A DNA stretch of 64,000 nucleotides from Eledone cirrhosa (Eukaryota), in NCBI GenBank assembly GCA_964016885.1, contig OZ024741.1:43276001-43340000 (forward strand), given 5' to 3'. The translations under genes were made by a program, and so were the position numbers. Under the pieces are notes generated by a model, which was not told where the DNA came from, made no database searches, and saw only the letters and a list, made by a program, of their open reading frames with translations. Shown here piece by piece: positions 804 through 62,050 of the stretch (the first letter of the stretch is position 1; each line of letters begins with the position of its first letter).

Positions 804-854
804 AACATCGCTGATGATAGATAAAACATCTTGAAAACACTTGTGTTTCGCGTT
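804..854 (+). ncRNA. Type I hammerhead ribozyme-like motif
   Basis: aacatcg CTGATGA t-agat aaaac atct-t GAAA acac tt gtgt T-T cgcgtt: canonical core with stem II and stem III; stem I weak. Confidence 0.55.
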
Positions 855-1079
855 CTTATACAGCTATTGAGATTGATATTGCATGATCAGAGTTTAAACC
901 TTCATAGTAAGATTTATGTATCTTCATTACGCATACGCCTTCATATAATAGTCTTTTATGAATCGCAGTATGTTAGTTATAATAGAAATAAAAGTATACA
1001 TACACATCTTTTCCTTTGTTGATGCATTCACCGACGTCCACCTGAAAATATGCCGAGAATAAAGGAAAGAATGGAAAAT

Positions 1080-1167
1080 ACACACACACACACACACACA
1101 CACACACACACACACACACACACACACACACACACACACACACACACACACACACACACACACACAC
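1080..1167. repeat. (CA)n microsatellite (one of dozens of (TA)n/(CA)n/(GA)n tracts in the window)
   Basis: Direct reading. Confidence 0.99.
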
Positions 1168-1179
1168 ATATACAACGAG

Positions 1180-1434
1180 AGAATTAGAATTTAGCTTCGA
1201 ACATAGCTGTATATAAGTATGTATTTGAATTTCGTATTTCTAAAGAAATACCGTATGATTATAAATAAACGTTTAGTAATCCATAACTATTAATACCACT
1301 GGCAGCTACTGCCAGCAGGCGGTGCCTGGCAGAAACAAGAGGGACATATTTATAATCATATCGTATTTCTTTAGAAATATGAAATTCAAATACATATTTG
1401 TATACTGCTATGTTCGAAGATAAATTCTAATTCT
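1180..1434. repeat. Fold-back element, ~87-bp imperfect inverted arms around an ~80-bp spacer
   Basis: 1180-1267 (gaattagaatttagcttcgaacatagc...tgattataaat) is the reverse complement of 1347-1434. Confidence 0.85.
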
Positions 1435-1568
1435 ATTATATTATAAGTTGAGCCAACTTATACAGCTTCATATGCAAATGAGATTAATCACCTAATTTAC
1501 ATAGACGAAAAAAAAAAACTATATATTTTCGCATGTTTCAAAGGCCAGCAGTAGCAAGAGCGGGAGAG

Positions 1569-57810: not shown

Positions 57811-57892
57811 GATATATATATATATATATATATATATATAAGTAGATGGGATATTATATATATATATATATATATATATATATATACACACA

Positions 57893-58234
57893 TGTAGATG
57901 GGATATTTAATTTGTTGGACAAATATAAGTGTTTATAACTGATTCAGAGCACTCGACAGTTTTCTAGACTAAATATTCAATGATATTAAATAAATGGAAA
58001 CTATATTTATAAAACCATATTTATTCTATTATATATATTTCAAGGGTACCAAAAACTAGTAGTCAAGGAAAATTCAACTGATAAGGTATGTTTCCTTGGC
58101 TATGTCAAAATTCATAAAACACACTGTGTATTTTATCTGATGAAAGCGTACCAAAGGTTTTGGTACCCTTGAAATATATATAATAGAATAAATATGGTTT
58201 TATAAATATTGTTTCCATTTATTTAATATCATTG
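57893..58234. mobile_element. Fold-back with HHR (58130-58189, plus) and ~85-nt tail on the left
   Basis: attttat CTGATGA aag-c-gtacca aaggttt tggtac-c-ctt GAAA tatata TA atagaat; inverted half copy at 57978-58054. Confidence 0.88.
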
Positions 58235-58315
58235 TATATATATATATATATATATATATATATATATATATATATATATATATATATATATATATATATA
58301 TATATATATATATAT

Positions 58316-61300
58316 AAAGGACGTAAAATAAGAAAATATTTTTTTAAAAAAATTTAAAAAAAATTTTTTTCTTACTTAAATTTTCACTCCAACTAATTAG
58401 TTTCTGCAATGGGATAAAGACAGTTACGTAATCCAACTGTCGAGAATTCATTGCGTCATCAGGAAGTCTATTCTCAGTTAAGTCTCCAGGCAATGCGCGG
58501 ACACTGGCGGCTCATATAAAAATAATAATAATTCGGTAGATCGAACAGCTTGCGAGGACTGGATTCTATGTACCGAAATTCTCACTGCTTCAAGTCAAAT
58601 GGCCGATTCTAAAGAATCAATCACGTGACACAGAGGCTAGTTAGAAGGAATGGGATGGTAAGATGACTGACGCCTACTAACACCCCAAAAAAAATTTTTT
58701 TAGAAGTGGTTTTGACAAGTTTGCTCGACAAATCAGTGATTTGGAGATAAATATAGATAATTTAATATATCAACTAACATAAGCGCACAGATGCACGCCC
58801 ATGCCAGCAAATACACAGGTTATGTCATAGTACCTAGGTGGTTCAATGCAGGAGAATGCAGAACAATAATATAAAGGACGTAAAATAAGAAAATATTTTT
58901 TTAAAAAAATTTAAAAAAATTTTTTTTCTTACTTAAATTTTCACTCCAACTAATTAGTTTCTGCAATGGGATAAAGACAGTTACGTAATCCAACTGTCGA
59001 GAATTCAGAAAGAATTCATTGCAGAAACTAATTAGTTGGAGTGAAAATTTAAGTAAGAAAAAAATTTTTTTTAAATTTTTTTAAAAAAATATTTTCTTAT
59101 TTTACGTCCTTTATATTATTGTTCTGCATTCTCCTGCATTGAACCACCTAGGTACTATGACATAACCTGTGTATTTGCTGGCATGGGCGTGCATCTGTGC
59201 GCTTATGTTAGTTGATATATTAAATTATCTATATTTATCTCCAAATCACTGATTTGTCGAGCAAACTTGTCAAAACCACTTCTAAAAAAATTTTTTTTTT
59301 TTTTTTTTTTTTTTGGGGTGTTAGTAGGCGTCAGTCATCTTACCATCCCATTCCTTCTAACTAGCCTCTGTGTCACGTGATTGATTCTTTAGAATCGGCC
59401 ATTTGACTTGAAGCAGTGAGAATTTCGGTACATAGAATCCAGTCCTCGCAAGCTGTTCGATCTACCGAATTATTATTATTTTTATATGAGCCGCCAGTGT
59501 CCGCGCATTGCCTGGAGACTTAACTGAGAATAGACTTCCTGATGACGCAATGAATTCTCGACAGTTGGATTACGTAACTGTCTTTATCCCATTGCAGAAA
59601 CTAATTAGTTGGAGTGAAAATTTAAGTAAGAAAAAAATTTTTTTTAAATTTTTTTAAAAAAATATTTTCTTATTTTACGTCCTTTATATTATTGTTCTGC
59701 ATTCTCCTGCATTGAACCACCTAGGTACTATGACATAACCTGTGTATTTGCTGGCATGGGCGTGCATCTGTGCGCTTATGTTAGTTGATATATTAAATTA
59801 TCTATATTTATCTCCAAATCACTGATTTGTCGAGCAAACTTGTCAAAACCACTTCTAAAAAAATTTTTTTTTGGGGTGTTAGTAGGCGTCAGTCATCTTA
59901 CCATCCCATTCCTTCTAACTAGCCTCTGTGTCACGTGATTGATTCTTTAGAATCGGCCATTTGACTTGAAGCAGTGAGAATTTCGGTACATAGAATCCAG
60001 TCCTCGCAAGCTGTTCGATCTACCGAATTATTATTATTTTTATATGAGCCGCCAGTGTCCGCGCATTGCCTGGAGACTTAACTGAGAATAGACTTCCTGA
60101 TGACGCAATGAATTCTCGACAGTTGGATTACGTAACTGTCTTTATCCCATTGCAGAAACTAATTAGTTGGAGTGAAAATTTAAGTAAGAAAAAAATTTTT
60201 TTTAAATTTTTTTAAAAAAATATTTTCTTATTTTACGTCCTTTATATTATTGTTCTGCATTCTCCTGCATTGAACCACCTAGGTACTATGACATAACCTG
60301 TGTATTTGCTGGCATGGGCGTGCATCTGTGCGCTTATGTTAGTTGATATATTAAATTATCTATATTTATCTCCAAATCACTGATTTGTCGAGCAAACTTG
60401 TCAAAACCACTTCTAAAAAAATTTTTTTTTGGGGTGTTAGTAGGCGTCAGTCATCTTACCATCCCATTCCTTCTAACTAGCCTCTGTGTCACGTGATTGA
60501 TTCTTTAGAATCGGCCATTTGACTTGAAGCAGTGAGAATTTCGGTACATAGAATCCAGTCCTCGCAAGCTGTTCGATCTACCGAATTATTATTATTTTTA
60601 TATGAGCCGCCAGTGTCCGCGCATTGCCTGGAGACTTAACTGAGAATAGACTTCCTGATGACGCAATGAATTCTCGACAGTTGGATTACGTAACTGTCTT
60701 TATCCCATTGCAGAAACTAATTAGTTGGAGTGAAAATTTAAGTAAGAAAAAAATTTTTTTTAAATTTTTTTAAAAAAATATTTTCTTATTTTACGTCCTT
60801 TATATTATTGTTCTGCATTCTCCTGCATTGAACCACCTAGGTACTATGACATAACCTGTGTATTTGCTGGCATGGGCGTGCATCTGTGCGCTTATGTTAG
60901 TTGATATATTAAATTATCTATATTTATCTCCAAATCACTGATTTGTCGAGCAAACTTGTCAAAACCACTTCTAAAAAAATTTTTTTTTGGGGTGTTAGTA
61001 GGCGTCAGTCATCTTACCATCCCATTCCTTCTAACTAGCCTCTGTGTCACGTGATTGATTCTTTAGAATCGGCCATTTGACTTGAAGCAGTGAGAATTTC
61101 GGTACATAGAATCCAGTCCTCGCAAGCTGTTCGATCTACCGAATTATTATTATTTTTATATGAGCCGCCAGTGTCCGCGCATTGCCTGGAGACTTAACTG
61201 AGAATAGACTTCCTGATGACGCAATGAATTCTCGACAGTTGGATTACGTAACTGTCTTTATCCCATTGCAGAAACTAATTAGTTGGAGTGAAAATTTAAG

Positions 61301-62050
61301 TAAGAAAAAAATTTTTTTTAAATTTTTTTAAAAAAATATTTTCTTATTTTACGTCCTTTATATTATTGTTCTGCATTCTCCTGCATTGAACCACCTAGGT
61401 ACTATGACATAACCTGTGTATTTGCTGGCATGGGCGTGCATCTGTGCGCTTATGTTAGTTGATATATTAAATTATCTATATTTATCTCCAAATCACTGAT
61501 TTGTCGAGCAAACTTGTCAAAACCACTTCTAAAAAAATTTTTTTTTTTTTTTTTTTTTTTTTGGGTGTTAGTAGGCGTCAGTCATCTTACCATCCCATTC
61601 CTTCTAACTAGCCTCTGTGTCACGTGATTGATTCTTTAGAATCGGCCATTTGACTTGAAGCAGTGAGAATTTCGGTACATAGAATCCAGTCCTCGCAAGC
61701 TGTTCGATCTACCGAATTATTATTATTTTTATATGAGCCGCCAGTGTCCGCGCATTGCCTGGAGACTTAACTGAGAATAGACTTCCTGATGACGCAATGA
61801 ATTCTCGACAGTTGGATTACGTAACTGTCTTTATCCCATTGCAGAAACTAATTAGTTGGAGTGAAAATTTAAGTAAGAAAAAAATTTTTTTTAAATTTTT
61901 TTAAAAAAATATTTTCTTATTTTACGTCCTTTATATTATTGTTCTGCATTCTCCTGCATTGAACCACCTAGGTACTATGACATAACCTGTGTATTTGCTG
62001 GCATGGGCGTGCATCTGTGCGCTTATGTTAGTTGATATATTAAATTATCT
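58316..62050. mobile_element. Retrozyme-like array of a 558-bp unit: ~1.2 units minus (58316-59007), then ~5.4 units plus; HHRs at 58386-58467 (minus), 59534-59615, 60092-60173, 60650-60731, 61208-61289, 61781-61862
   Basis: acttc CTGATGA c-gcaatg..gacagtt..aactgtc..cattgc-a GAAAC taatta GTT ggagt. Units look identical except for poly-T length; (TA)n flanks. Confidence 0.92.

What the first reader, a model, noticed from the sequence alone, without database searches (positions are those of the whole stretch)
804..62050. Exceptionally dense and diverse hammerhead ribozyme collection tied to (TA)n-inserting elements
By eye I find about 15 sequence families (roughly 30 copies, some decayed or weak) of type I HHR motifs in 64 kb. 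Nearly all lie near the 3' end of a PLE or non-coding unit embedded in (TA)n. HHRs in PLE pseudo-LTRs are established. The density, and the fact that most 'anonymous' islands between TA tracts turn out to be ribozyme-bearing, suggest a microsatellite-targeted PLE/retrozyme system that builds much of this non-genic DNA (inference).
Basis: partly seen in the sequence, partly recalled or inferred. Interest (0 to 1): 0.75.

Follow-up and report, generated by a model that had tools for sequence, protein, structure and literature searches.

The report
Genome-wide hammerhead-tipped Penelope elements
This stretch, like the rest of its genome, is packed with hammerhead-shaped RNA motifs (predicted self-cutters) near the ends of Penelope-type jumping genes and non-coding repeats that end in TA microsatellites and are likely copied by those genes' enzymes; the kind of system is known, but the estimated 350,000 motifs, and thriving families whose altered cores likely cut poorly, stand out.

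Summary
A strict type I hammerhead scan gives 20 hits in the window (19 real) against 0.2 in shuffles; with decayed and partial copies I count 19 families and about 38 whole motifs. They sit in the ends of Hydra-clade and Neptune-like Penelope-like elements (PLEs), in two tandem retrozymes (558 and 591 nt) and in short non-coding units. The window is not exceptional, though: 40 spaced 10-kb stretches hold 54 hits (window about 2.3-fold higher, P 0.03-0.07), which extrapolates to about 3.6 x 10^5 motifs genome-wide (2.2-5.4 x 10^5). In those stretches 48 of 54 have (TA)n within 300 nt downstream, 16 upstream (control 28%). Stem I and the 3-8 core pair covary when left free. Hydra PLEs with hammerheads inserting in (TA)n, U3-A8 cores and retrozymes are all published. 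Not found in the papers read: this scale, and abundant families with non-canonical cores in nearly all sampled copies (U4A, U4C, C3.A8). Cleavage, expression and whether TA tracts pre-exist are untested. The scan found the same system, scale and core variants before on other DNA of this genome.

The parts
803..854 (+). Decayed hammerhead of an old non-coding family
   Evidence: 33 other genomic matches at 68-82% identity; homologues show stems I-III and a GUC site
1568..1613 (+). Hammerhead with decayed stem II
   Evidence: homologous to an intact motif in L041, E 1e-13
1741..1931 (.). Short two-armed end piece of the Hydra-D family (3' halves of the hammerhead); second copy 45944-46133
   Evidence: self-BLAST, homology
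2460..2497 (-). Minimal hammerhead, weak stem I (weak call)
   Evidence: 4 other copies; fails the strict scan
3341..3403 (-). Hammerhead with G12A decay, same family as 58125-58194
4434..8377 (+). Hydra-clade PLE copy A (broken ORF 4447-7505) with hammerhead 8036-8179 in its 3' end, then (TA)n at 8378
   Evidence: 43-57% identity to the Hydra-B protein; strict hit 22.5
8392..9470 (-). Non-coding relative of the Hydra-D end, hammerhead about 8405-8500 with CUGAGAA core
14326..14864 (.). Two-armed non-coding unit with hammerheads 14466-14518 (-) and 14769-14821 (+); decayed third copy 44871-44924 (-)
20049..20671 (+). Two copies of a 273-nt piece carrying only the 5' half of a hammerhead (cores 20284, 20634), broken by (TA)n in loop II
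   Evidence: 13 other genomic copies run on past this point, intact motif in L136
21096..21612 (+). Two decayed copies of a U3-A8 hammerhead family (about 21133-21168 and 21450-21489)
   Evidence: homologous to intact L034 motif
24954..26791 (-). 591-nt tandem retrozyme, U3-A8 hammerheads 25191-25278, 25782-25869, 26373-26460
   Evidence: further copies in 2 of 40 random stretches
31682..31719 (-). Hammerhead, one change in stem III
   Evidence: 97% to intact L077 motif
31816..36450 (-). Neptune-like PLE (ORF pieces 33022-34950) with pseudo-LTRs and an inverted arm; U3-A8 hammerheads 31953-31990 (-), 35113-35150 (-), 36341-36378 (+)
   Evidence: Pfam GIY-YIG, 775-aa open frames elsewhere, motifs, strict hits
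37112..40716 (+). Hydra-clade PLE copy B (ORF 38317-39639) with inverted 5' arm; U4A hammerheads 40556-40606 (+) and 37136-37185 (-)
42711..42893 (+). Short two-armed unit, hammerhead 42839-42880 plus inverted half
44487..44697 (-). Solo Neptune-like end, decayed hammerhead 44624-44661
45126..45885 (-). Second insertion of the 591-nt retrozyme, hammerheads 45198-45285 and 45789-45876
46210..46590 (-). Non-coding unit with U4C hammerhead about 46472-46591; 3' half again at 42014-42100 (+)
46566..48235 (+). Hydra-clade PLE copy C (broken ORF) with weak-stem-I hammerhead 48181-48225
49522..49582 (-). Decayed hammerhead (A6U)
50137..54416 (.). Hydra-clade PLE copy D, two arms as a 4.3-kb inverted repeat; hammerheads about 54228-54323 (+, CUGAGAA core) and 50150-50245 (-, decayed)
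54461..55511 (-). 635-nt partial tandem, hammerheads 54714-54793 (strict) and about 55351-55430
55591..57811 (-). 5'-truncated Neptune-like PLE, decayed hammerhead about 55725-55762
57887..58234 (+). Two-armed unit, hammerhead 58125-58194 plus inverted half
58317..62049 (.). 558-nt tandem retrozyme in two opposed arms; hammerheads 58386-58467 (-), 59534-59615, 60092-60173, 60650-60731, 61208-61289, 61781-61862 (+)
   Evidence: 40 of 40 scored genomic matches 100% identical, 824 candidates

Best explanation
The motifs are type I hammerheads near the 3' ends of Hydra-clade and Neptune-like Penelope-like elements and of non-coding repeats, all ending in (TA)n, and they likely pile up because the elements' endonuclease/reverse transcriptase would cut TA tracts and start copying a short, fixed distance downstream of the hammerhead, so that even the shortest copy keeps the motif. 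Shown: the motifs, their polarity towards (TA)n, two fixed end points per family, intact coding families, opposed arms and tandem arrays. Inferred: TA-directed cutting by the GIY-YIG domain; internal start of reverse transcription at two sites (by analogy with PMC11167929); mobilisation of the non-coding units in trans; repeated insertion into the TA tracts left beside earlier copies, which gives the island-and-tract mosaic; self-cleavage (as dimers for the palindromic stem III) and circle formation for the tandem units. Cleavage is likely useful but not required for spread, since families with altered cores are abundant.
For: Strict hits 20 vs 0.2 shuffled in the window and 54 vs 1-4 in 400 kb. 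With positions 3 and 8 free, hits fall on C-G (56) and U-A (18); the other 14 combinations have 0-3 each. With stem I not required, its first three pairs form in 24 of 43 distinct cases against 11% (max 30%) in 2000 partner permutations, with all four Watson-Crick types. One homologous group shows C-G, A-U and U-A at the same stem I position. (TA)n within 300 nt downstream for 48 of 54, upstream 16, control 28%. End points past the cut are bimodal: Hydra-D 16-23 nt (17 copies) and 96-102 (27) of 45; 558-nt unit 71-74 (8) and 192-198 (12); 42845 family 10-23 (7) and 85-93 (8) of 21. Intact 713-aa and 775-aa frames recur genome-wide. 46 of 74 strict hits have a perfectly self-complementary stem III segment, the dimer design of PMC4209133. 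U4A core in 11 of 11 other Hydra-B copies chosen by protein likeness and 29 of 29 chosen by DNA likeness.
Against: No cleavage, expression or circle data. No direct sequence link between any non-coding unit of the window and a given PLE was established, except the Hydra-D relatives; short units may simply be solo ends of coding PLEs that I did not find. The empty-site search did not show that TA tracts pre-exist. Minimum-energy folds of 10 motifs are only modestly stable (z -2.2 to 0.0) and several show alternative pairings over the core. For Hydra-B and Neptune the end-distance tally was confounded by short internal AT runs. In vitro start sites are known for a Poseidon element only, not for Hydra or Neptune.
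Confidence: 0.8

Rival explanations
1. The non-coding tandem units spread mainly as DNA satellites (unequal crossover, gene conversion, DNA circles) after being born once from PLE ends; the hammerhead is a passenger.
For: Arrays are near-identical head-to-tail; the preprint 10.64898/2026.07.22.740005 favours birth from PLE ends with local amplification (Discussion passage).
Against: Dispersed insertions on at least five chromosomes end at the same two unit positions in (TA)n and often have opposed arms, which satellite recombination does not predict.
Confidence: 0.08
2. The elements do not find TA tracts but make or lengthen them during insertion (slippage or telomerase-like addition at AU-ending start sites), so the microsatellite richness is their product.
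For: Element ends are themselves TAT/ATAT-like and run without a break into the tract; hammerhead count and TA-tract count correlate across 40 stretches, rho 0.65; PLE reverse transcriptases are sister to telomerase (PMC8557442).
Against: 1 of 30 Hydra-B and 1 of 20 Hydra-D copies end at the usual point with no tract; 267 of 323 tracts have no strict motif pointing at them; published Hydra families are described as inserting into (TA)n. The correlation fits both readings.
Confidence: 0.15
3. Most motifs are no longer ribozymes; the three-way fold is kept as a binding handle or start signal for the PLE protein.
For: U4A, U4C and C3.A8 cores prevail in sampled copies of abundant families; catalytic mutants did not impair insertion in vitro for an Anolis PLE (PMC11167929).
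Against: In 464 kb the canonical or compensated core dominates (74 strict hits; variants at 4, 5, 6, 9 number 11, 5, 4, 0), and the 3-8 pair covaries, which points to selection on catalysis in most families.
Confidence: 0.2
4. Chance motifs in AT-rich repeat DNA.
For: Bare CTGANGA count (28) is within the shuffled range (mean 19.6, max 29); relaxed scans have real noise (11 shuffled vs 45 observed at score 8).
Against: Strict scans exceed shuffles 25- to 100-fold; free-position covariation and strand polarity.
Confidence: 0.01

Closest known systems
Hydra clade of Penelope-like elements, incl. Hydra-1_Obim (Craig et al. 2021, PMC8557442; outline, passages, section 11 and part 2 of the supplement read)
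   Same: Single ORF with C-terminal nuclease, RW(K/R), DKT, CxCX5C linker, no CCHH; type I hammerhead near the 3' end; insertion in (TA)n; inverted 5'-truncated arms.
   Different: Four distinct Hydra families in 64 kb and about 2.3% Hydra-like coding DNA in random stretches, where the paper found 'a small number' of further families; all Hydra hammerheads listed in its File S2 have the CUGANGA core (found by a canonical descriptor), whereas Hydra-B has CAGAAGA and sampled Hydra-D copies CUGAGAA; loop II is often 30-115 nt.
Neptune clade PLEs (Arkhipova 2006 as summarised in PMC8557442)
   Same: [quoted passage not shown]
   Different: U3-A8 core. Placement rests on motifs only; no tree was built.
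Minimal hammerheads of metazoan PLEs (Cervera and de la Pena 2014, PMC4209133; parts 1-2 of 4 read)
   Same: Palindromic stem III, unpaired base after A9, many heterogeneous families per genome, mostly solo or opposed copies, U3-A8 variant (about 1,300 in Schistosoma).
   Different: Stem III here is longer (3-8 pairs); counts there are 2,000-9,000 per genome against about 3.6 x 10^5 estimated here (different descriptors).
Metazoan non-LTR retrozymes (Cervera and de la Pena 2020, PMC7229834, passages; Li, Clavereau and Pollet 2026, 10.64898/2026.07.22.740005, part 1 of 5 and passages)
   Same: Non-coding tandem units with one type I hammerhead each, low GC, co-occurring with PLEs.
   Different: Units of 558 and 591 nt exceed the 150-450 nt quoted; arrays end in (TA)n at two fixed points and form opposed arms; the highest published count seen is 120,000 (axolotl). 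Circular RNA is not shown here.

Membership tests
Type I hammerhead ribozyme | Core CUGANGA / GAAA / NUH with three stems, open stem I | tested here: met
   19 real strict hits vs 0.2 shuffled; NUH tally GUA 21, AUA 19, GUC 12, GUU 11 of 74
Type I hammerhead ribozyme | Covariation of stems and of the 3-8 tertiary pair | tested here: met
Type I hammerhead ribozyme | Canonical core in the Hydra-B (U4A), Hydra-D (C3.A8) and 46588 (U4C) families | tested here: not met
   CAGAAGA 29 of 29 and 11 of 11; CUGAGAA 18 of 19; C at 4 in 12 of 13 distinct copies; the last two samples are biased to copies like the query
Type I hammerhead ribozyme | Self-cleavage | not testable with these tools
   needs an assay
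Type I hammerhead ribozyme | Match to an Rfam hammerhead model | tested here: inconclusive
   none among the 150 matches shown of 240, which were microsatellite-driven miRNA matches; 90 lower ones not shown
Hydra clade PLE | RWK-type and DKT motifs in the RT N-terminus | tested here: met
   RWR in 4 and DKT in 5 of 12 Hydra-B loci (others truncated or changed; NKT, DKP once each); RWR-like CWR and DKT in copy A
Hydra clade PLE | CxCX5C linker, no CX2-5CxxC or CCHH, C-terminal nuclease with CxxC and CxH | tested here: met
   CxCX5C at residue 568, no CX2-5CxxC; CDLC and CKH in the translation
Hydra clade PLE | Short single ORF, 3' hammerhead, (TA)n insertion | tested here: met
   713-aa frames; TA run at the same end point in 28 of 30 Hydra-B and 19 of 20 Hydra-D copies by eye
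Hydra clade PLE | Phylogenetic placement with published Hydra proteins | not tested
   no tree built; 120 listed homologues carry no informative names
Neptune clade PLE | C-terminal GIY-YIG with CX2-5CxxC linker and CCHH; DKG | tested here: met
   Pfam PF01541 E 7e-6; CGRSNCGTC at 639, DKG at 151
Neptune clade PLE | Phylogenetic separation from Nematis and Poseidon | not tested
   motifs only
Non-LTR retrozyme | Non-coding tandem units each with a type I hammerhead | tested here: met
   558- and 591-nt arrays; no ORF of 120 aa or more in them
Non-LTR retrozyme | Expressed as linear and circular RNA | not testable with these tools
   contig data cannot show it

The most novel reading that the evidence does not exclude
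This genome holds the largest and most varied hammerhead load yet counted (several 10^5 motifs, 50 or more families), run by one TA-directed PLE machinery that also copies non-coding RNA circles, and several of its most successful families spread with a crippled catalytic core while keeping the fold, so that the hammerhead acts chiefly as the landmark that positions reverse transcription, with the elements feeding the TA microsatellites they insert into.
Probability: 0.3. Interest if true: 0.7.

Novelty: new variant of a known kind. Interest (0 to 1): 0.48.

Why it matters
What hammerheads do for Penelope-like elements is an open question (PMC8557442 calls it unclear; PMC11167929 found cleavage dispensable in vitro). 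This genome offers dozens of families with intact proteins, exact end points, non-coding passengers and natural core variants (canonical, U3-A8, U4A, U4C, C3.A8): a ready panel to test whether cleavage, the fold or neither is needed, and whether retrozymes are copied by PLE enzymes. It also suggests that much repeat DNA that standard libraries leave unclassified (Pfam missed all Hydra ORFs here) belongs to one ribozyme-tipped system. The window itself is only a sample of that landscape.

Tried and rejected
Rfam scan: swamped by microsatellite matches, no hammerhead among rows shown. The repeat finder: mostly microsatellite noise. First descriptor without the unpaired base after A9 found only 1-2 motifs; it was too strict. 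Sequencing runs for the 558-nt unit: no RNA holder listed; no reads were laid on that unit, so cross-species covariation of it stays open. Contigs laid on the Hydra-B end show no other letter at or above 10% at core position 4 in 4 runs, but two may be the assembly's own source and two hold only 1-2 contigs, so this is weak. Empty-site search over 354 enclosed stretches returned tandem units, palindromes and common adjacencies, no clean empty site. Rejected as hammerheads: 38855- (inside an ORF), 40900+, 10125-, 21764-, 27400+, 41066+, 48919+, 48642-/49248-, and other long-range one-mismatch hits at shuffle level. The idea that 20284/20634 is a stem-II-less 'minizyme' was dropped: they are halves of an ordinary motif. 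The CUGAGAA family scores below my threshold (0 hits), so strict counts miss it. Literature searches: hammerhead+Penelope-like+microsatellite, hammerhead ribozyme+octopus (32), core-variant terms, Penelope+octopus+microsatellite+genome (59), hammerhead+cephalopod (75; sharks only among 10 of 129 listed), retrozyme+microsatellite (76): none gave a cephalopod hammerhead census or a natural U4A core. Subscription papers (for example the 2017 study of dimeric PLE hammerheads, recalled) and bioRxiv supplements were not visible and may bear on the variant claims.
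Full report
Setting. The window is C2:43,276,001-43,340,000 of a 3.0-Gb animal genome. It is 34% GC and has 62 merged (TA)6+ tracts. The organism is probably an octopod: this rests on a SINE recalled from memory and on earlier scan notes, and was not tested.

Noticed in passing
window 15060-15760 (+): Fragment of a LINE reverse transcriptase (Pfam RVT_1, E 1e-12), RTE-like by recall, with no hammerhead; 27000-27960 looks like another decayed LINE piece.
   Followed up: partly
window 10440-10590, 17740-17900, 43840-44030, 44339-44463, 46300-46466: Five copies of a tRNA-type SINE; one stops abruptly at a TA tract that leads into a Neptune-like end (44464), a possible case of a tract arising at insertion.
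   Followed up: no
window 48446-48841 and 49052-49447: Partial tandem of a 396-nt unit (94% alike) ending in (TA)n with no convincing hammerhead; possibly a hammerhead-less PLE-type unit.
   Followed up: partly
window 33834-34960 (-): The Neptune-like element has a 5' region between pseudo-LTR and RT with an open frame (33813-34253) that does not match the 769-aa protein; the RT part is missing in this copy.
   Followed up: no
window 58970-59060: The two arms of the 558-nt array join inside loop II of the hammerhead through a short inverted junction.
   Followed up: no
window 31816-36450, 55591-56500: Neptune-like 3' ends contain internal (TG)n runs and short direct repeats; nested rearranged arms at 35318-35793.
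   Followed up: no
window 13912-14154: 243-nt island with 150-nt terminal inverted repeats between TA tracts, no hammerhead.
   Followed up: no
L111:2463-2972, L137:833-1287, L072:7540-8080: Other hammerhead-bearing repeats of about 420-480 nt that carry a TA-rich tract inside the unit.
   Followed up: no
window 29252-31510: 2.3-kb island without hammerhead or PLE match that begins CTAGCAG.. after a TA tract; Helitron-like by recall, untested.
   Followed up: no
L031, L037, L039, L045: Four of the 40 random stretches have 0-1 TA tracts and no hammerhead, so the landscape is patchy.
   Followed up: partly
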